A stretch of DNA of 32,265 nt, from the IMG/VR virus record IMGVR_UViG_2651869694_000010; one strand, written 5' to 3'. Shown here one piece after another: positions 11,750 through 21,513 of this stretch. A program made the translations under genes and the position numbers. Origin of the DNA: a virus (Duplodnaviria > Heunggongvirae > Uroviricota > Caudoviricetes). Positions within the stretch are counted from its first letter, which is position 1; every line of letters begins with the position of its first letter. The notes under the pieces were generated by a model that made no database searches, was not told where the DNA came from, and worked only from the letters and a program-made list of their open reading frames with translations.

Positions 11750-13257
11750 TGGCAATTCTTGATGATGTGATTGGCGTTTTTTCACCAGGATGGAAAGCGG
11801 CAAGGCTGCGTTCCCGTGCGGTGATCCAGGCTTATGAGGCCGTAAAAACGACGCGGACACACAAAGCCCGGCGGGAAAACCGAACTGCCGACCAGTTAAG
11901 CCAGTACGGGGCCGTGTCGTTACGTGAGCAGGCCCGTTACCTTGATAACAACCACGATCTGGTTATTGGTGTATTTGACAAGCTGGAAGAACGGGTGGTG
12001 GGGAAAAACGGGATTATTGTCGAGCCACATCCGGTATTACGCAATGGGGCCATTGCCCGTGACCTGGCTGCGGAGATTCGCACCCGATGGAGTGAATGGT
12101 CTGTCAGCCCGGAAGTCACCGGGCAGTTTACCCGTCCGATGCTGGAACGTCTGATGCTGCGTACCTGGCTGCGCGATGGTGAGGTGTTTGCCCAGATGGT
12201 TTCCGGGCGCATAAACAGCCTGACGCCTTCTGCCGGTGTTCATTTCTGGTTGGAGGCGCTAGAGCCAGACTTTATTCCCATGACCAGTGATGAGAGCAAC
12301 AGGCTGAATCAGGGCGTGTTTGTTGATGACTGGGGGCGTCCCGAAAAATATCTGGTGTATAAAAGCCGTCCCGTATCCGGACGGCAGATGGAAACCAAAG
12401 AAGTGGATGCAGAGCGAATGCTGCATCTTAAATTTGTTCGCCGTCTGCACCAGATGCGCGGGACGTCTTTGTTGTCCGGTGTGCTGATCCGCCTCAGTGC
12501 CCTGAAAGAGTATGAAGATTCTGAGCTGACTGCAGCAAGGATCGCCGCTGCTCTGGGGATGTACATCCGCAAAGGCGACGGGCAGAGCTATGAACCGGAT
12601 GGTAATGGCAGCAAGGATAAGGAACGCGAGCTTACCATTCAGCCAGGCATTATTTACGACGATCTGAAACCCGGCGAAGAAATCGGAATGGTGAAGTCGG
12701 ATCGCCCCAATCCTAATCTTGAAACTTTTCGTAATGGTCAGTTGCGTGCAGTGGCGGCTGGCAGTCGTCTGAGTTTTTCCAGTACAGCGCGCAACTATAA
12801 CGGCACTTACAGCGCCCAGCGTCAGGAGCTGGTTGAATCCACTGATGGCTACCTGATCCTGCAGGACTGGTTTATTGGTGCCGTCACCCGCCCGATGTAC
12901 CGTGCCTGGCTGAAACAGGCTGTGGCATCCGGTGTTATCAGGCTACCCCGCGATCTTGACCGTTCTTCACTGTATACCGCGGTGTATTCCGGACCGGTGA
13001 TGCCGTGGATTGACCCTGTTAAGGAGGCTGAGGCCTGGAAAATCCAGATTCGTGGTGGAGCGGCGACAGAATCAGACTGGGTACGTGCTGGTGGTCGTAA
13101 TCCGGATGATGTCAAACGTCGGCGCAAGGCCGAAATTGATGAAAACCGCAAGCTGGATCTGGTATTTGATACCGATCCGGCCAGTGATAAAGGAGGTAGC
13201 AGTGCCGCAACGAAACGACAGGAGCCGCAGCACACCAACAACCAGTCCGAAGAATAA
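11749..13257 (+). CDS. B: portal protein (lambda gpB-like)
   Basis: 502 aa from ATG at 11749, in the canonical position after W. Confidence 0.9.
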   Translation: MAILDDVIGVFSPGWKAARLRSRAVIQAYEAVKTTRTHKARRENRTADQLSQYGAVSLREQARYLDNNHDLVIGVFDKLEERVVGKNGIIVEPHPVLRNGAIARDLAAEIRTRWSEWSVSPEVTGQFTRPMLERLMLRTWLRDGEVFAQMVSGRINSLTPSAGVHFWLEALEPDFIPMTSDESNRLNQGVFVDDWGRPEKYLVYKSRPVSGRQMETKEVDAERMLHLKFVRRLHQMRGTSLLSGVLIRLSALKEYEDSELTAARIAAALGMYIRKGDGQSYEPDGNGSKDKERELTIQPGIIYDDLKPGEEIGMVKSDRPNPNLETFRNGQLRAVAAGSRLSFSSTARNYNGTYSAQRQELVESTDGYLILQDWFIGAVTRPMYRAWLKQAVASGVIRLPRDLDRSSLYTAVYSGPVMPWIDPVKEAEAWKIQIRGGAATESDWVRAGGRNPDDVKRRRKAEIDENRKLDLVFDTDPASDKGGSSAATKRQEPQHTNNQSEE

Positions 13258-13270
13258 TTCCTGGTTCAGG

Positions 13271-15229
13271 ATGCAGGCTGGTCACCAGAGTGACGCGGAT
13301 ATTTATATTTATGACGAGATTGGTTTCTGGGGTGTTACGGCGAAGCAGTTTATCAGTGATCTGAATGCACTGGGCGATATCACCCACATTAATCTCCATA
13401 TCAATTCACCGGGTGGCGATGTCTTTGAAGGCATCGCCATTTTTAATGCACTGAAAACACATGGTGCGTCCATTACCGTTTATGTCGACGGAGTGGCGGC
13501 ATCAATGGCGTCGGTCATTGCGATGGTGGGAAACCCGGTCATTATGCCGGAAAACACTTTCATGATGATTCATAAACCATTTGGCTTTACGGGCGGTGAT
13601 GCGGAGGACATGCGCACCTATGCCGACCTGCTCGATAAAGTTGAGGCGGTTCTCTTACCCGCTTATGCACAGAAAACCGGGAAAACCACCGATGAAATTG
13701 CTGCCATGCTGGCGGATGAGACCTGGATGTCCGGAGCCGAATGTCTGGCTCATGGATTTGCTGACCAGGTGACGCCAGCGGTTAAGGCAATGGCATGTAT
13801 TCAGTCAAAACGTACAGAGGAATTTAAAAAGATGCCGGAATCTATTCGAAACATGATTACTCCGCCACGTAACAGTGCTCCACGCGTACCGGATGATGAA
13901 CCAGCAGCACCCCGGACGCCAGTGCAGGCAGCAGCACCCGTGGTGGATGAAAACAGCATCCGTGCGCAGGTACTGGCAGAGCAAAAAGCGCGTGTAAACG
14001 GTATTAATGATCTGTTTGCCATGTTTGGCGGGCGTTATCAGGCGCTGCAGGCTCAGTGCCTTGCCGATCCTGAGTGTTCGCTGGAGCAGGCCCGCGAGAA
14101 GCTGTTGAACGAGATGGGGCGAGAGTCCACGCCATCCAATAAAAATACCCCGGCTCATATTTATGCCGGTAACGGTAATTTTGTGGGGGACGGGATCCGC
14201 CAGGCGCTGATGGCGCGTGCCGGATTTGAAAAAACCGAACGTGATAATGTCTACAACGGGATGACCCTGCGTGAATATGCCCGTATGTCACTGACTGAAC
14301 GGGGTATTGGGGTTTCCAGTTATAACCCGATGCAGATGGTCGGTGCGGCGTTCACACACAGTACGTCTGACTTCGGTAATATTCTGCTGGATGTTGCGAA
14401 CAAAGCCATTCTGCAGGGCTGGGAAGATGCCCCTGAAACCTATGAACAGTGGACGCGGAAAGGTCAGTTGTCTGATTTTAAAATTGCCCATCGTGTGGGT
14501 ATGGGGGGCTTCAGTGCTCTGCGTCAGGTGCGTGAAGGGGCGGAATATAAATACGTCACCACCGGAGATAAACAGGCCACTATTGCACTGGCGACCTATG
14601 GCGAGCTGTTCAGTATCACCCGTCAGGCCATTATCAATGATGATCTGAATATGCTGACCGATGTCCCGATGAAACTGGGCCGTGCGGCGAAATCCACTAT
14701 TGCCGATCTGGTTTATGCCATTCTGACGTCTAACCCGAAAATCTCCACAGATAATGTAAGTCTGTTCGATAAAGCGAAACATGCAAACGTACTGGAGAGC
14801 GCTGCAATGGACGTGGCATCGCTGGATAAAGCCCGCCAGTTGATGCGCGTTCAGAAAGAGGGGGAGCGTCATCTGAATATTCGTCCTGCGTTCGTACTGG
14901 TACCGACGGCGATGGAGTCTGTTGCTAACCAGGTCATTCGCTCCTCAAGTGTCAAGGGGGCTGACATTAACGCCGGTATTATTAACCCGGTGAAAGATTT
15001 TGCGACCGTTATTGCAGAGCCTCGTCTTGATGATAACAGCCAGACCACCTTCTACCTGGCTGCGTCAAAAGGCTCCGATACGATTGAAGTGGCTTATCTC
15101 AACGGTGTGGATACGCCATATATTGATCAGATGGAGGGCTTCAGTGTGGATGGCGTGACAACGAAAGTGCGTATTGACGCCGGTGTCGCGCCAGTTGATC
15201 ACCGCGGTCTGGTGAAATGTACGGCGTAA
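13271..15229 (+). CDS. prohead protease-scaffold-major capsid fusion protein
   Basis: N-terminal ClpP-like (S14) protease region (INSPGGDVFEGIAIFNALK...ASMASVIAMVG...MIHKP), a Pro/Ala-rich linker, then an approximately 350-aa C-terminal capsid-like region. A single 652-aa ORF replaces lambda C, Nu3 and E. Confidence 0.75.
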   Translation: MQAGHQSDADIYIYDEIGFWGVTAKQFISDLNALGDITHINLHINSPGGDVFEGIAIFNALKTHGASITVYVDGVAASMASVIAMVGNPVIMPENTFMMIHKPFGFTGGDAEDMRTYADLLDKVEAVLLPAYAQKTGKTTDEIAAMLADETWMSGAECLAHGFADQVTPAVKAMACIQSKRTEEFKKMPESIRNMITPPRNSAPRVPDDEPAAPRTPVQAAAPVVDENSIRAQVLAEQKARVNGINDLFAMFGGRYQALQAQCLADPECSLEQAREKLLNEMGRESTPSNKNTPAHIYAGNGNFVGDGIRQALMARAGFEKTERDNVYNGMTLREYARMSLTERGIGVSSYNPMQMVGAAFTHSTSDFGNILLDVANKAILQGWEDAPETYEQWTRKGQLSDFKIAHRVGMGGFSALRQVREGAEYKYVTTGDKQATIALATYGELFSITRQAIINDDLNMLTDVPMKLGRAAKSTIADLVYAILTSNPKISTDNVSLFDKAKHANVLESAAMDVASLDKARQLMRVQKEGERHLNIRPAFVLVPTAMESVANQVIRSSSVKGADINAGIINPVKDFATVIAEPRLDDNSQTTFYLAASKGSDTIEVAYLNGVDTPYIDQMEGFSVDGVTTKVRIDAGVAPVDHRGLVKCTA

Positions 15230-16947: not shown

Positions 16948-17691
16948 ATGACCACACCAAATCCACTGGCAAAAACGAAAGGTGCGGGAACGACGTTCTG
17001 GATGTACACCGGCAAGGGCGATGCGTTTGCGAACCCTTTATCGGACACTGACTGGCTGCGTCTTGCGATGGTGAAGGATCTGCAGCCTGGCGAAATGACC
17101 GCTGATGCAGAAGATGACACTTATCTCGATGATGAAGATGCAGACTGGAAAACGACAACCCAGGGGCAGAAATCCGTCGGTGATACTTCGGCGACGCTGG
17201 CCTGGCGTCCGGGTGACAGCGGGCAGAAAAAACTGGTTCAGTTGTTCGACTCCGGTGAAGTCTGCGCGTTTCGTATCAAATATCCCAACGGTACTGTTGA
17301 TGTTTTCCGTGGCTGGCTGAGTTCACTGGGTAAAACCATTGCCTCAAAAGACGTGATGACCCGCACAGTGAAAATCAGCGGTGTGGGGCGTCCGTATCTG
17401 GCAGAAGAAGGCACTGAAACCGTGGGCGTTACCGGGCTGACGGTGGCACCGGCATCTGCCAGTGTAAAAGTGGGAGCAACCACCACGCTGACCTTTACAG
17501 TAAAACCTGACGGAGCCAGTGACAAAGCGATCAGTGTGCATTCGACAGATCCACAGACTGCCACTGTGACCCTGAACGGGCTTGTGGCCACGGTGAAAGG
17601 CGTGAAGCAGGGCAGTGTCAGCATTGTGGGCATGACCGCTGACGGGAATTTTGTGGCTGTGGCTGCGGTGACTGTCAGCGCCGCAGGTTAA
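16948..17691 (+). CDS. V: major tail protein V with C-terminal Ig-like domain
   Basis: ATG at 16948 with AAGGAGGTG upstream; MTTPNPLAKTKGAGTTFWMY...DDEDADWKTTTQGQKSVGDTSATLAWRPG closely resembles lambda gpV, including the C-terminal Ig-like region. Confidence 0.9.
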   Translation: MTTPNPLAKTKGAGTTFWMYTGKGDAFANPLSDTDWLRLAMVKDLQPGEMTADAEDDTYLDDEDADWKTTTQGQKSVGDTSATLAWRPGDSGQKKLVQLFDSGEVCAFRIKYPNGTVDVFRGWLSSLGKTIASKDVMTRTVKISGVGRPYLAEEGTETVGVTGLTVAPASASVKVGATTTLTFTVKPDGASDKAISVHSTDPQTATVTLNGLVATVKGVKQGSVSIVGMTADGNFVAVAAVTVSAAG

Positions 17692-17711
17692 CAGGACGAT
17701 ACTCATCATTT

Positions 17712-17735
17712 GCCCCGGTTATTCGGGGCTTTTTT
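17712..17735 (+). terminator. intrinsic terminator-like hairpin between V and G
   Basis: GCCCCG (17712-17717), loop GTTATT, CGGGGC (17724-17729), then six T (17730-17735). Confidence 0.5.
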
Positions 17736-17748
17736 GCAGGTGGAGAAC

Positions 17749-18138
17749 ATGATGTTTCTGAAACAGGACACGTTTAATTATGAAAAACAGTCCGTAGTGC
17801 TCAGTGAGCTGTCCGGGCTGCAGAGAATTGAATATCTGACGTTTGTTCAGCAGCGAACGGCAAAGTTTGATGCCGGGGAGGGAGAACTGCCGGAGGCTGA
17901 ACGACAGATTGCTTTTCTGCGGATGGGGATGGATATCAATGCCTGGCTGGTTTCCCGCTCACTGTGGAATGCGGAACAGTCTCAGGATGTTGAGACGCTT
18001 TACGCATCCGTTATTACAACATGGTCGTATGATGCCCTGGGTGCGGGGGCGGAGATGGTTCTGTCGCTGAGCGGTATGGGGGCCATTGATAATGCCGGGG
18101 ATTTGGAGCATGAGGTGCTGACGCCGGAAAAGTCCTGA
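17749..18138 (+). CDS. G: tail assembly chaperone G
   Basis: MMFLKQDTFNYEKQSVVLSELSGLQRIEYL resembles lambda gpG (MFLKTESFEHNGVTVTLSELSALQRIEHL as I recall it); start at 17749 or 17752. Confidence 0.85.
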   Translation: MMFLKQDTFNYEKQSVVLSELSGLQRIEYLTFVQQRTAKFDAGEGELPEAERQIAFLRMGMDINAWLVSRSLWNAEQSQDVETLYASVITTWSYDALGAGAEMVLSLSGMGAIDNAGDLEHEVLTPEKS

Positions 18139-18476
18139 CGCGGGAAATGCAGTTTGTCATGCGGCTTGCCCGGGAGTTCCGGCGGGCAGACTGGCGGCGG
18201 ATGCTGTCGGAAATGTCGGCCACTGAGCTTGGTGAGTGGGGCGATTATTTCCGGATGCAGAGCTTCAGTGATGTGTGGATGGATGCGCAGTTTGCCTCGC
18301 TGAAGGCATTGATCGTGAGAATGGTGTCCGGCAGCAGTGATGCTGCGGTGGCTGATTTCAGCCTTTTACCGGAAGAGAACGGGATACCGGAGCGAACGGA
18401 CGAAGAACTGATGCATCTTGGGGAAGGTATTTCCGGAGGTGTGCGTTATGGACCAGATAGCCAACCTGGTCATTGA
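18114..18476 (+). CDS. T: T-frame extension of G (G-T fusion by programmed -1 frameshift)
   Basis: The -1 frame is open only from 18114 (stops at 18087, 18090 and 18111) and continues to 18476, while G stops at 18136-18138; this reproduces the lambda G/G-T arrangement. The only candidate slip site is GAA AAG (18127-18132). Confidence 0.6.
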   Translation, partial: GADAGKVLTREMQFVMRLAREFRRADWRRMLSEMSATELGEWGDYFRMQSFSDVWMDAQFASLKALIVRMVSGSSDAAVADFSLLPEENGIPERTDEELMHLGEGISGGVRYGPDSQPGH

Positions 18477-21400
18477 TTTGGGGATTGATGCGGCAGAGTT
18501 TAAAAATGAAATCCCCCGTATCAAAAACCTTCTGAATGGTGCAGCCAGCGATGCAGAACGGTCTTCTGCCCGTATGCAGCGTTTTATGGAGCGTCAGACT
18601 CAGGCCGCCCGGCAGACAACGCAGGCGGCTTCTTCGGCTGCAACAGCCGCATCCGTCCATGCGCAGACGGTGGAGAAGAGCGCACAGGCTCATGAACGCA
18701 TGGCCCGCGAGGTGGAGCAAACCCGCCAGCGTATGGAGGCACTGAGCCAGAAAATGCGCGAGGAACAGGCGCAGGCCATGGCTCTGGCGGAGGCTCAGGA
18801 TAAAGCGGCTGCCGCGTTTTATCGTCAGATTGACAGTGTGAAACAGGCCAGTGCGGGGCTGCAGGAATTACAGCGTATTCAGCAGCAGATCCGACAGGCC
18901 AGAAACAGTGGCGGGATTGGTCAGCAGGATTATCTGGCGCTGATTTCTGAGGTTACGGCGAAAACCCGTGTTCTTACGCAGGCTGAGGAAGAGGCTACCC
19001 GACAGAAAGTGGCGTTTATCCGTCAGCTTAAAGAGCAGGCAACCCGCCAGAATCTTTCTTCTTCTGAGTTGCTTCGTGCTAAGGCTGCCCAGCTGGGGGT
19101 AAGCAGTGCTGCAGAAGTGTATATCCGCAAAATGGAGCAGGCAGGAAAAGCCACGCATTCGCTGGGTCTGAAAAGTGCAGCGGCCCGCCAGGAGATAGGC
19201 GTTCTGATAGGTGAACTGGCCCGCGGCAATTTAGGGGCGCTGAGGGGATCCGGGATAACGCTGGCTAACCGTGCCGGATGGATAGACACTCTGATGTCAC
19301 CGAAAGGCATGATGCTTGGCGGGGTTATTGGCGGTATTGCCGCGTCCGTCTATGGTCTGGGTAAAGCCTGGTATGACGGTCAGAAGGAGGGGGAAGAATT
19401 TAACCGCCAGCTGTCGCTGACGGGGCATTATGCCGGAGTCACTGCCGGGCAGCTGTGGACGCTCAGTCGTGCTATTTCCGGGAATGGTATCACGCAACAT
19501 GCTGCAGCCGGTGCGCTGGCTCAGGTGGTGGGGAGTGGTGCATTTCGTGGAAACGATATCGGTATGGTGGCGAGAGCTGCCGCACAGATGGAGCGATCGG
19601 TTGGCCAGTCGGTCAGCGATACCATAAATCAGTTTAAGCGGCTGAAGGATGATCCTGTAAATGCCGCGAAGGCTCTGGACAATGAGCTGCATTTTCTTAC
19701 TGCCACTCAGCTTGAGCAGATACGTGTCCTTGGGGATCAGGGACGGTCCAGTGATGCTGCACGGATAGCCATGTCTGCACTGGCAGAGGAAACCGGTCGG
19801 CGTACTGCGGATATTGATAATAACCTCAATGCGCTTGGCAGTACGCTGAAGTATCTGTCTGATTTGTGGAGTCGTTTCTGGGATGCGGCCATGAATATTG
19901 GTCGTGAAGACTCGCTGGATGAACAGATTGCCGCTTTACAGGAGAAAGTGTCGCGGGCGAAAAGACTCCCCTGGACGGCATCATCTTCTCAGGTTGAATA
20001 CGATCAGCAGCGTCTTAACGATCTTCAGGAGAAAAAACGCCAGAAGGATTTGCAGGATGCAAAAGAGCAGGCAGAGCGGAATTATCAGGAGCAACAGAAA
20101 CGACGTAATGCTGAAAATGCTGCACTGAACCGGATGAATGAAACGGAAGCAGCACGACATCAGCGTGAAATTGCGCGTATTAATTCCATGCAGTACGCCG
20201 ATCAGGCTGTCAGGGATGCAGCGATACAACGTGAAAATGAACGTTACGAGAAAGCCCTGGCATCCGGTAAGAAAAAAACACGCGAAACCCGTAATGATGA
20301 GGCCACCCGGTTATTGCTGCAGTACAGTCAGCAACAGGCACAGGTGGAAGGACAGATTGCTGCTGCAAGACAGTCAGCAGGCATTGCCACTGAAAAGATG
20401 ACAGAAGCGCATAAACAGCTTCTGGCTCTGCAGCAGCGCATCAGCGATCTGGACGGGAAAAAACTGACGGCAGATGAAAAGAGTGTGCTGGCCCGTAAAG
20501 ATGAACTGATTCAGGCACTGACGCTGCTGGATGTAAAACAGCAGGAGCTTCAGAAACAGACGGCACTCAACGATCTGAAGAAAAAAACAATTCAGCTGAC
20601 CAGTCAACTGGCTGAAGAAGAGCGCGCTCAGCGTCAGCAACATGACCTGGATATCGCCACGGTGGGTATGGGTGATCAGCAGCGGCAGCGATATCAGGTA
20701 CAACTGAGTCTTCGCCAGAAATACCAGCAACAGCTGGAGCAGTTGAGGCGGGATAGTGAGCAGAAAGGGACATATAACACGGATGACTACAGAAAGGCCG
20801 AGCAGGCGCTGACGGAGAGCCTGAACCGACAACTGAATGAGAATCGCCGTTACTGGCAACAGCTTGAAGTTGTGCAGGGTAACTGGAAAAACGGAGTCCT
20901 GCGTGCATTTCAGGATTTTACCGTGGATGCAGATAATACGGCAGGAACAGCAGAACAGGTGTTCTCGTCAGCCTTCAGCAACATGGGAAATGGCCTGGCA
21001 ACTTTTGTCACTACCGGCAAACTCAATTTCAAATCCTTCACCTCTTCTGTGCTGTCAGATATGGCGAAAATCCTGGCGCAGGCAACCATGATGAAATCGA
21101 TAAAAGGGATTGGCAGTGTACTGGGATTTGATCTCAGCAACCTTTCCCTGAATGCCAATGGGGGGATTTATCAGTCTGCTGATTTGAGTCGTTACAGTGG
21201 CACGGTGGTTAACCGTCCGACGTTTTTTGCTTTTGCAAAAGGCGCGGGTGTGATGGGTGAAGCGGGACCTGAAGCCATTCTGCCACTGCGTCGTGGTGCT
21301 GACGGTAAGCTGGGGGTTGTGGCGGATATTGGTGGTTCAGGTATGGCGATGTTTGCCCCGCAGTACAACATCGAGATCAATAACGATGGCACGAACGGGC

Positions 21401-21513
21401 AGATAGGTCCGGCTGCCCTGAAGGTGGTTTATGACCTTGGGAAAAAAGCGGCAGCGGACTTTATGCAACAGCAGGCCCGTGATGGTGGTCGGTTAAGTGG
21501 AGCATATCGGTAA
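18448..21513 (+). CDS. H: tail tape measure protein H
   Basis: 1021 aa from ATG at 18448 (GGAGG upstream); coiled-coil-rich; C-terminal INNDGTNGQIGPAALKVVYDLGKKAAADFMQQQARDGG matches the lambda gpH C-terminus as I recall it. Confidence 0.9.
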   Translation: MDQIANLVIDLGIDAAEFKNEIPRIKNLLNGAASDAERSSARMQRFMERQTQAARQTTQAASSAATAASVHAQTVEKSAQAHERMAREVEQTRQRMEALSQKMREEQAQAMALAEAQDKAAAAFYRQIDSVKQASAGLQELQRIQQQIRQARNSGGIGQQDYLALISEVTAKTRVLTQAEEEATRQKVAFIRQLKEQATRQNLSSSELLRAKAAQLGVSSAAEVYIRKMEQAGKATHSLGLKSAAARQEIGVLIGELARGNLGALRGSGITLANRAGWIDTLMSPKGMMLGGVIGGIAASVYGLGKAWYDGQKEGEEFNRQLSLTGHYAGVTAGQLWTLSRAISGNGITQHAAAGALAQVVGSGAFRGNDIGMVARAAAQMERSVGQSVSDTINQFKRLKDDPVNAAKALDNELHFLTATQLEQIRVLGDQGRSSDAARIAMSALAEETGRRTADIDNNLNALGSTLKYLSDLWSRFWDAAMNIGREDSLDEQIAALQEKVSRAKRLPWTASSSQVEYDQQRLNDLQEKKRQKDLQDAKEQAERNYQEQQKRRNAENAALNRMNETEAARHQREIARINSMQYADQAVRDAAIQRENERYEKALASGKKKTRETRNDEATRLLLQYSQQQAQVEGQIAAARQSAGIATEKMTEAHKQLLALQQRISDLDGKKLTADEKSVLARKDELIQALTLLDVKQQELQKQTALNDLKKKTIQLTSQLAEEERAQRQQHDLDIATVGMGDQQRQRYQVQLSLRQKYQQQLEQLRRDSEQKGTYNTDDYRKAEQALTESLNRQLNENRRYWQQLEVVQGNWKNGVLRAFQDFTVDADNTAGTAEQVFSSAFSNMGNGLATFVTTGKLNFKSFTSSVLSDMAKILAQATMMKSIKGIGSVLGFDLSNLSLNANGGIYQSADLSRYSGTVVNRPTFFAFAKGAGVMGEAGPEAILPLRRGADGKLGVVADIGGSGMAMFAPQYNIEINNDGTNGQIGPAALKVVYDLGKKAAADFMQQQARDGGRLSGAYR

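What the first reader, a model, noticed from the sequence alone, without database searches (positions are those of the whole stretch)
18114..18136. G-T translational frameshift window with a non-canonical slip site
The -1 frame is open for only 23 nt before the G stop, so any G-T fusion must shift within GTGCTGACGCCGGAAAAGTCCTGA. Lambda uses G GGA AAG; here the only candidate is CCG GAA AAG. That would need tRNA-Lys to slip from AAG to AAA and tRNA-Glu to re-pair on GGA with a mid-codon wobble. The conserved position with an altered heptamer is informative about slip-site tolerance.
Basis: partly seen in the sequence, partly recalled or inferred. Interest (0 to 1): 0.5.

Follow-up and report, generated by a model that had tools for sequence, protein, structure and literature searches.

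The report
Lambda-type G-T tail chaperone frameshift site
This is the usual programmed -1 ribosomal frameshift that joins the two tail-assembly chaperone genes of lambda-like phages, using the heptamer GGAAAAG, which differs from lambda's own but is already marked as the slippery sequence in the phage N15 record.

Summary
G (17752-18138) ends ACG CCG GAA AAG TCC TGA. The T frame is -1 and is open only from 18114. The overlap contains no canonical X_XXY_YYZ heptamer, only G_GAA_AAG at 18126-18132.

The frameshift reading has strong comparative support but no experimental test.
- The predicted 241-aa GT fusion aligns with lambda gpGT across the junction without a gap (E 8e-42).
- The shifted Lys lies exactly 11 residues before the conserved LARE motif, as in lambda, N15, phi80, Fels-1 and Stx2 phages.
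- The T frame shows coding-type divergence starting at the heptamer.
- The ATG at 18147, where databases start T, is not conserved.

The heptamer is not unusual for the family. Of 22 lineages sampled across Enterobacterales, 15 carry GGAAAAG, 3 carry lambda's GGGAAAG, and 4 carry other heptamers. All three synonymous positions are fixed. The phage N15 RefSeq record already labels this same GGAAAAG "slippery sequence for -1 translational frameshift".

I found no significant downstream RNA structure. An SD-like GAGG lies 10 nt upstream but is only suggestive.

Verdict: an unannotated member of a known kind, present in about a third of complete E. coli genomes. Interest is low. One mild curiosity remains: biophysicists use G GAA AAG as a low-slippage control.

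The parts
16948..17691 (+). Major tail (tube) protein gene, lambda V homologue. It marks the upstream boundary of the module.
   Evidence: PF16461 at 1.5e-66 plus a Big_2 domain. PGAP annotation of a 100% identical prophage.
17712..17735 (+). Terminator-like hairpin plus T-run between V and G
   Evidence: Also annotated in the mEp460, Ayreon, N15 and HK225 records.
17752..18138 (+). G: tail assembly chaperone, the zero-frame product (128 aa, 14.3 kDa). A second in-frame ATG lies at 17749.
   Evidence: PF06894 at 1.4e-40. PGAP names it 'phage tail assembly chaperone G'. Translation.
18111..18113 (+). TGA in the -1 frame. It sets the 5' limit of the window in which a shift can give a read-through product.
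   Evidence: Direct reading. ORF analysis on relatives with the same junction gives a 22-nt overlap.
18112..18117 (+). SD-like GAGGTG. Its GAGG core ends 10 nt 5' of the heptamer. Possible weak upstream stimulator, not established.
   Evidence: duplex with the 16S 3' end is -6.9 kcal/mol, and 9.6% of background blocks in the same gene are as good. 6 of 15 GGAAAAG lineages score at or below 10%. The spacing equals that in the dnaX-mimic mRNA printed in PMC6924986 and lies within the 6-17 nt range used in PMC4066793.
18126..18132 (+). Slip site G_GAA_AAG. Zero frame: (CC)G GAA AAG. -1 frame: GGA AAA.
   Evidence: It is the only in-phase shift-prone motif in the overlap. It is invariant in all window-clade and Salmonella loci and in 15 of 22 lineages. 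All three synonymous sites are fixed. The identical heptamer is annotated as slippery in N15.
18136..18138 (+). G stop codon (TGA)
18132..18476 (+). T-frame part of the predicted GT fusion. G18132 is read twice, and the stop is at 18474-18476. GT = join(17752..18132,18132..18476), 241 aa, 27.1 kDa.
   Evidence: PF06223 at 5e-15. Colinear alignment with lambda gpGT across the junction, E 8e-42. Coding-type divergence in this frame starts right after the heptamer.
18147..18149 (+). ATG used by PGAP and GenBank annotators as the start of a separate T gene. It is not conserved and has no properly spaced SD.
   Evidence: Annotations. The homologous codon is CTG, ATT, CGT and others in Fels-1, Salmonella prophages, N15, phi80 and lambda. 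GGGA ends 1 nt before the ATG.
18448..21513 (+). Tape measure protein gene (lambda H homologue). It overlaps the end of T by 29 nt and marks the downstream boundary of the module.
   Evidence: PF06791, PF09718 and PF24622. PGAP annotation.

Best explanation
A small fraction of the ribosomes translating G slip back one nucleotide on G_GAA_AAG (18126-18132). They then continue in the -1 frame to 18476. The result is a G-T fusion ending ...HEVLTPEK-VLTREMQFVMRLAREF..., made alongside the more abundant 128-aa G protein.

The fusion is the homologue of lambda gpGT. By homology, its G part binds the tape measure protein and its T part recruits the major tail protein.

The shift most likely happens with peptidyl-tRNA-Glu on GAA and tRNA-Lys on AAG. 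tRNA-Lys (anticodon mnm5s2UUU) re-pairs perfectly on AAA. tRNA-Glu re-pairs on GGA with Watson-Crick pairs at positions 1 and 3 and a G.U pair at position 2.

What is shown: the ORF geometry, the homology, and the conservation in position and phase. What is inferred: that the fusion is made, its frequency, and the two-tRNA re-pairing. The confidence of 0.85 is for a -1 ribosomal frameshift at this heptamer producing GT. Within that, I put the two-tRNA version at about 0.55 and the single-tRNA version at about 0.3.
For: Family and context:
- G is PF06894 and T is PF06223, between a lambda-type tail tube gene and a tape measure gene.
- T lies in the -1 frame, which is open only from 18114.

Junction:
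- The predicted GT aligns with lambda gpGT without a gap across the junction (E 8e-42).
- The spacing of Lys plus 11 residues to LARE is identical in lambda, N15, phi80, HK225, mEp213, Fels-1 and an Stx2 phage.

Heptamer conservation:
- It is invariant across G proteins only 30-58% identical, from Escherichia, Salmonella, Proteus, Xenorhabdus, Erwinia, Enterobacter, Citrobacter, Kosakonia, Serratia, Buttiauxella and Symbiopectobacterium.
- Its distance to the G stop varies (-4, -7 or -19 nt), as do the neighbouring codons.
- 15 of 16 x-Glu-Lys lineages use NNG GAA AAG, against 0.066 expected per lineage.
- The G at position 1 is kept in front of Pro, Ala and Leu codons alike, as P-site re-pairing on GGA requires.

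T-frame coding:
- Divergence by codon position just after the heptamer is 0.43/0.27/0.57, like the body of T at 0.32/0.18/0.53.
- This holds even where the G frame has already terminated.
- phi80 and mEp213 have no ATG before the conserved LAREFGRPDWRAML.

Prior annotation and literature:
- The N15 record marks GGAAAAG as 'slippery sequence for -1 translational frameshift'.
- HK225 annotates T as the 'downstream half of translational frameshift product'.
- Literature on the lambda G/GT ratio and function is reviewed in PMC5009743.
- tRNA-Glu re-binding to GGA through a G.U pair is discussed for phage slip sites in PMC10885494.
Against: - There is no experimental evidence for this phage group. 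All close records annotate G and T as separate genes.
- In a reconstituted E. coli system, AUG GAA AAG (that is, G GAA AAG) gave mainly the zero-frame product. [quoted passage not shown]
- A_AAG without a stimulator was barely above background in vivo: 0.147% against 0.112% (PMC4066793).
- I found no significant downstream structure in this lineage (z -1.3, +0.17 and -0.84).
- The upstream SD-like element is not individually significant.
- Morganella carries A_GAA_AAG and Ewingella carries G_GCA_AAA at the same site. So full P-site re-pairing is not obligatory in the family.
Confidence: 0.85

Rival explanations
1. The site and the protein product are the same, but only tRNA-Lys slips. The shift is a single-tRNA A_AAG event of the NNA_AAG hexanucleotide type seen in IS3-family elements and B. 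subtilis cdd. tRNA-Glu does not re-pair meaningfully on GGA.
For: - A_AAG is the most shift-prone tetramer in E. coli, reaching 5.6% with a pseudoknot (PMC4066793).
- G_CGA_AAG (IS1222) and A_CGA_AAG (cdd) are used naturally (PMC5009743).
- Morganella A_GAA_AAG and Ewingella G_GCA_AAA lack good P-site re-pairing yet occupy the homologous position.
Against: - The G at heptamer position 1 is kept in 15 of 16 Glu-Lys lineages, across Pro, Ala and Leu codons. The G frequency at such third positions in the same genes is 0.33. That points to selection for pairing with C36 of tRNA-Glu.
- Tetramers need a strong stimulator, and none was found here.
Confidence: 0.3
2. T is made on its own from the ATG at 18147 (or 18159), for example by termination-reinitiation after the G stop 8 nt upstream. 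No fusion is needed.
For: - An in-frame ATG lies 8 nt after the G stop.
- All annotators of close relatives call T this way.
- Both ATGs precede the Pfam T domain, which starts at residue 35 of the -1-frame translation.
Against: - The ATG at 18147 is not conserved (CTG in Fels-1, ATT in Salmonella prophages, CTG in N15, phi80 and lambda). The second ATG is Leu in many lineages.
- There is no properly spaced SD.
- The T-frame sequence upstream of the ATG (V-L-T-R-E) is conserved with a coding-type substitution pattern, including an almost invariant Glu.
- The heptamer's synonymous sites are fixed.
- In lambda the T part works as a tether only when joined to G (PMC5009743).
- Some free T could still be made in addition to the fusion.
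Confidence: 0.07
3. The frame change occurs in the mRNA. RNA polymerase slips on the A4 run and makes transcripts lacking one A.
For: The site contains a short homopolymer, AAAA, at 18128-18131.
Against: - Known bacterial transcriptional realignment needs runs longer than about 7 A or 8 T (PMC3711429). Four A is far too short.
- Conservation of the G on both sides of the run (GG-AAAA-G), in a fixed phase, fits codon-anticodon re-pairing and not polymerase slippage.
Confidence: 0.02

Closest known systems
Bacteriophage lambda G / G-T programmed -1 frameshift (Levin, Hendrix and Casjens 1993; Xu, Hendrix and Duda 2004, 2013, 2014, as cited in PMC5009743)
   Same: - The protein families (PF06894, PF06223) and the gene order V-G-T-H are the same.
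- T is in the -1 frame in both.
- The shift position relative to the T domain is the same: Lys plus 11 residues to LARE.
- The GT proteins are colinear (E 8e-42).

   Different: - The heptamer is G_GAA_AAG instead of G_GGA_AAG, so the P-site tRNA is tRNA-Glu with a middle-position G.U pair after the shift, not tRNA-Gly.
- The G stop lies 1 codon after the heptamer instead of 5.
- The open overlap is 22 nt instead of 61 nt.
- An ATG happens to follow the G stop.
Phage N15 genes 14/15, together with phi80, HK225, mEp213 and Fels-1
   Same: The heptamer GGAAAAG is identical and sits at the homologous position. The N15 record annotates it explicitly as 'slippery sequence for -1 translational frameshift'.
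   Different: - T is only about 43% identical.
- In N15, phi80, HK225 and mEp213 the G stop is 19 nt downstream. The N15 and mEp213 representatives, and related Enterobacter/Citrobacter-type lineages, carry a stable hairpin about 34 nt 3' of the heptamer and no SD-like element.
- Fels-1 is different: like the window, its G stop is one codon after the heptamer.
- The window lineage has GAGG 10 nt upstream and no significant downstream structure.
A_AAG tetranucleotide / NNA_AAG hexanucleotide -1 sites (IS3, IS1222 G_CGA_AAG, B. subtilis cdd A_CGA_AAG; Licznar et al. 2003 as summarised in PMC5009743)
   Same: tRNA-Lys slips from AAG to AAA while the 5' codon cannot re-pair canonically.
   Different: - Those sites depend on strong 3' stimulators, and none is detectable here.
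- Here position 1 of the heptamer is conserved, which suggests partial P-site re-pairing.
E. coli dnaX A_AAA_AAG signal
   Same: Both have an AAG Lys codon in the A site. Both have an SD-like element 10 nt 5' of the heptamer; the dnaX-mimic mRNA sequence is printed in PMC6924986.
   Different: - dnaX has a perfect heptamer and a stem-loop 5-9 nt downstream, and shifts about 50% of ribosomes.
- Here there is no such stem-loop, and the expected efficiency is a few per cent or less.

Membership tests
Lambda-type G/GT tail assembly chaperone with programmed -1 frameshift | Two overlapping ORFs located between the major tail protein gene and the tape measure gene | tested here: met
   V 16948-17691, G 17752-18138, T frame 18114-18476, H from 18448.
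Lambda-type G/GT tail assembly chaperone with programmed -1 frameshift | The upstream ORF is a gpG homologue and the downstream ORF a gpT homologue, with the downstream ORF in the -1 frame | tested here: met
   PF06894 at 1.4e-40 and PF06223 at 5e-15. Frame arithmetic. Fusion against lambda gpGT gives E 8e-42.
Lambda-type G/GT tail assembly chaperone with programmed -1 frameshift | A canonical X_XXY_YYZ slippery heptamer in the overlap | tested here: not met
   No in-phase XXXYYYZ in 18114-18135. This is a feature of lambda itself and not of the whole family: 19 of the 22 sampled lineages lack G_GGA_AAG, and 18 of them have no canonical heptamer at all (the Stx2 phage has canonical A_AAA_AAG).
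Lambda-type G/GT tail assembly chaperone with programmed -1 frameshift | A shift-prone motif conserved in phase at the homologous position, with its synonymous sites constrained | tested here: met
   GGAAAAG in 15 of 22 lineages. 15 of 16 Glu-Lys lineages use NNG GAA AAG against 0.066 expected per lineage. The spacing to LARE is constant. The same heptamer is annotated as slippery in N15.
Lambda-type G/GT tail assembly chaperone with programmed -1 frameshift | The downstream ORF lacks a conserved start of its own and is conserved as protein from the shift site onward | tested here: met
   ATG 18147 is not conserved. The coding-type pattern starts at the codon after the heptamer.
Lambda-type G/GT tail assembly chaperone with programmed -1 frameshift | A fusion protein made at a low fixed ratio to G (about 1:30 in lambda) and required for tail assembly | not testable with these tools
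   Needs protein detection and genetics. The lambda values come from PMC5009743.
A_AAG / NNA_AAG single-tRNA -1 sites (IS3-type) | An in-phase A_AAG preceded by an NNA codon | tested here: met
   GAA_AAG at 18127-18132.
A_AAG / NNA_AAG single-tRNA -1 sites (IS3-type) | A strong 3' stimulatory structure (pseudoknot or hairpin) a few nucleotides downstream | tested here: not met
   Fold z-scores are -1.3, +0.17 and -0.84. No Rfam match.
dnaX-type -1 signal | An SD-like sequence about 10 nt 5' of the heptamer | tested here: inconclusive
   GAGG at 18112-18115 lies 10 nt upstream. The duplex energy is -6.9 kcal/mol, but 9.6% of background blocks are as good. 6 of 15 lineages are enriched.
dnaX-type -1 signal | A stem-loop 5-9 nt 3' of the heptamer | tested here: not met

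The most novel reading that the evidence does not exclude
G_GAA_AAG, and not lambda's G_GGA_AAG, is the predominant natural slip site of this chaperone family in Enterobacterales. It works in vivo at a useful level even though it needs a second-position G.U pair in the P site and serves as a low-slippage control in vitro.

Different lineages may compensate in different ways. Some have an SD-like element 10 nt upstream, as here. Others have a hairpin about 34 nt downstream, as in the N15/phi80 type.

Both slipping tRNAs (Glu and Lys) carry mnm5s2U34 (my background knowledge). The G:GT ratio could therefore depend on the host's tRNA modification state.
Probability: 0.3. Interest if true: 0.45.

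Novelty: new member of a known kind. Interest (0 to 1): 0.2.

Why it matters
The main consequence is for annotation. This G-T module is found in 1848 of 5426 complete E. coli genomes. It is also in phages such as mEp460, cdtI and Tritos. Everywhere it is annotated as two separate genes, and T is given a start codon that is probably not used.

For the frameshifting field it is a minor point. A heptamer treated as poorly slippery in reconstituted systems is the preferred natural site of a well-studied recoding family. That makes it a convenient natural test case for how much P-site mismatch is tolerated in vivo.

It does not change what is understood about tail assembly.

Tried and rejected
- Canonical heptamer elsewhere in the overlap: none found.
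- A +1 frame continuation: the +1 frame is open for only 29 codons after the G stop and has no T homology.
- Known RNA families: no Rfam match at E up to 1 in 17650-18550.
- Downstream stimulatory structure in the window lineage: the MFE is not better than shuffles. The predicted helix starts immediately after the heptamer and is not conserved.
- Upstream SD-like stimulator: present at dnaX-like spacing, but not significant on its own and absent from the N15/phi80 clade. I keep it only as a possibility.
- Transcriptional slippage: rejected because the run is only four A.
- Literature on direct measurement of GAA_AAG in vivo: Licznar et al. 2003 could not be retrieved. No paper in the held library reports frameshift efficiency for G_GAA_AAG in a phage G-T context.
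- Slippage annotations in close relatives: none in mEp460, Tritos, Ayreon, PhiR55_1 or the PGAP prophage annotations.

Full report
**What the window is.** The 800 bases around the finding are 98-100% identical to lambdoid phages mEp460, cdtI, Tritos, Ayreon and PhiR55_1. They also match prophages in 1848 of 5426 complete E. coli genomes, including O157:H7 EDL933. The local gene order is that of the lambda tail module:
- a lambda-type tail tube gene (16948-17691, PF16461 at 1.5e-66);
- a terminator-like hairpin (17712-17735);
- G (17752-18138, PF06894 at 1.4e-40);
- a -1-frame ORF with the gpT domain (PF06223 at 5e-15);
- the tape measure gene, from 18448.

**Checking the observation.** G ends GAG GTG CTG ACG CCG GAA AAG TCC TGA, with the stop at 18136-18138. 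The -1 frame carries a TGA at 18111-18113 and then stays open to 18474-18476. Any G-T fusion must therefore change frame between 18114 and 18135.
- That stretch holds no in-phase X_XXY_YYZ heptamer. The formal scan was run on loci with an identical junction and agrees with direct reading of the window.
- It holds one in-phase Z_ZZN tetramer, A_AAG, inside G_GAA_AAG at 18126-18132.
- The bare heptamer is common in the window, at 10 copies against 5.4 expected. Chance has to be judged from conservation.

**Homology of the junction.** I joined the zero frame through AAG (18130-18132) to the -1 frame starting at G18132. This gives a 241-aa protein that aligns with lambda gpGT from end to end, with no gap at the junction (33% identity, E 8e-42). 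Lambda reads ...EPVSAGK-VFDGELSFALKLARE, and the window reads ...HEVLTPEK-VLTREMQFVMRLARE. The shifted Lys lies 11 residues before the conserved LARE motif in lambda, N15, phi80, HK225, mEp213, Fels-1, an Stx2 phage and the window alike. The site is therefore positionally homologous to the experimentally established lambda site.

**Comparative test.** I collected about 300 loci from IMG/VR, one-genome-per-species GTDB contigs and GenBank phages.
- Within the window's clade, and in Salmonella Gifsy/Fels-type prophages (G 57-80% identical), CCGGAAAAG(T/C)CCTGA is invariant. The preceding roughly 20 codons are hypervariable.
- In more distant G genes (30-45% identity), the heptamer persists. These come from Proteus, Xenorhabdus, Erwinia, Enterobacter, Citrobacter, Kosakonia, Serratia, Buttiauxella, Superficieibacter and Symbiopectobacterium. 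Its distance to the G stop varies among -4, -7 and -19 nt, and the preceding codon is CCG, GCG or CTG.
- I collapsed the set to 22 lineages below 85% nucleotide identity. Of these, 15 carry GGAAAAG, 1 AGAAAAG, 3 GGGAAAG (including lambda), 2 GGCAAAA and 1 AAAAAAG.
- From codon usage in the same G genes, the probability that an x-Glu-Lys tripeptide is written NNG GAA AAG is 0.066. It is written that way in 15 of 16 lineages. Even if only five of these lineages count as independent, the chance is about 1e-6.

**Is T read from the heptamer or from its own ATG?** The evidence favours the heptamer.
- Divergence between lineages in the five T-frame codons that follow the Lys is 0.43/0.27/0.57 at codon positions 1/2/3. 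The body of T shows the same signature, 0.32/0.18/0.53.
- The signature holds in lineages where the G frame has already stopped.
- The fifth residue after the Lys is Glu in nearly all lineages.
- The Met encoded by ATG 18147 is Leu, Ile, Arg, Val or His elsewhere.
- phi80 and mEp213 have no ATG before the conserved LAREFGRPDWRAML.
- The ATG at 18147 has no properly spaced Shine-Dalgarno sequence.

Independent initiation may add some free T in this clade, but it cannot be the conserved mode of expression.

**Mechanism.** After a -1 shift, tRNA-Lys moves from AAG to AAA, the classical shift-prone move in E. coli (PMC5009743; PMC4066793). tRNA-Glu would then face GGA, with Watson-Crick pairs at positions 1 and 3 and a G.U pair in the middle.
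- The near-invariant G at heptamer position 1 suggests that this P-site re-pairing matters. That position is a synonymous third base of Pro, Ala or Leu codons, where G has a frequency of 0.33 in these genes.
- The existence of A_GAA_AAG (Morganella) and G_GCA_AAA (Ewingella) shows that it is not absolutely required. A single-tRNA slip remains a serious variant, to which I give 0.3.
- Peng et al. used exactly AUG GAA AAG as their poorly slippery mRNA and saw mainly zero-frame product in vitro (PMC6924986).
- A_AAG without a stimulator is close to background in vivo.
- Lambda needs only about one GT per 30 G, so a low efficiency may be enough.

**Stimulators.** None is convincingly present in this lineage.
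- No Rfam family matches.
- The RNA downstream of the heptamer folds no better than shuffled sequence in this lineage (z -1.3, +0.17 and -0.84).
- An SD-like GAGG lies 10 nt upstream, the same spacing as in the dnaX-mimic mRNA. It recurs at 10-11 nt in Salmonella, Erwinia, Symbiopectobacterium and Superficieibacter lineages.
- That SD-like element is not significant by itself. In the window's own gene, 9.6% of background blocks pair with the 16S 3' end as well, and 6 of 15 lineages reach the 10% level. It is absent from the N15/phi80 clade.
- The N15/phi80 clade instead has a stable hairpin about 34 nt downstream. That is too far for a classical stimulator.

**Comparison with what is known.** This is the lambda G/GT recoding system. 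The specific heptamer is already recorded:
- The N15 RefSeq entry carries a misc_feature 'slippery sequence for -1 translational frameshift' on GGAAAAG.
- HK225 describes its T as the downstream half of the frameshift product.
- The PRFect paper lists an XXYYYY ('twofour') motif class and discusses tRNA-Glu re-binding GGA through a G.U pair.
- None of the close relatives of this window is annotated with the frameshift.
- I found no measurement of its efficiency in the accessible literature.

**Verdict.** It is a new, unannotated member of a known kind, of low interest. One modest point may be worth a specialist's attention: the heptamer that biophysicists use as a low-slippage control is the majority natural choice in this family.

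Noticed in passing
window 17712-17735: A terminator-like hairpin (GCCCCGGTTATTCGGGGC followed by T6) lies between the major tail gene V and G. The same feature is annotated in the mEp460, Ayreon, N15 and HK225 records. It could set the V:G expression ratio or stabilise the V message.
   Followed up: partly
L297 (N15), L301 (mEp213), L272, L278, L282, L295, L274, L277: about 34 nt 3' of the heptamer: A stable hairpin (GGCGCGYGAGUUCGG...CCGGACUGGCGYGCC) overlies the codons for LAREFGRPDWRA. Shuffle z-scores for +1..+100 are -2 to -5 in these lineages and -0.84 in the window lineage. It is too far downstream for a classical frameshift stimulator, and the synonymous variants seen (CGU/CGC) both keep the pairing. 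I did not resolve whether it is functional or a by-product of the coding sequence.
   Followed up: partly
L277 (Morganella), L270 and L099-L102 (Ewingella and IMG/VR), L302 (Stx2a phage): Other heptamers occupy the homologous G/T position: A_GAA_AAG followed directly by TAA, G_GCA_AAA followed directly by TAG, and the canonical A_AAA_AAG. In Proteus and Morganella the zero-frame stop codon directly follows the heptamer.
   Followed up: partly
proteins P0033 and P0048: Two database proteins are single-ORF G-T fusions created by internal deletions. One example joins ...TWSYDA to GKVLTREMQF.... They are either natural deletion variants or assembly errors. One comes from a 3.1-kb metagenome contig.
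   Followed up: no
window 13010-15229: A 739-aa ORF appears, by eye, to combine a ClpP/S49-like protease region with a major-capsid-like C-terminal part. It may be a fused prohead protease-capsid gene. I did not analyse it.
   Followed up: no
window 18448-18476: The tape measure gene start (ATG 18448) overlaps the end of the T frame by 29 nt. Ribosomes that have shifted into T therefore terminate inside H. The same arrangement is annotated in relatives.
   Followed up: no
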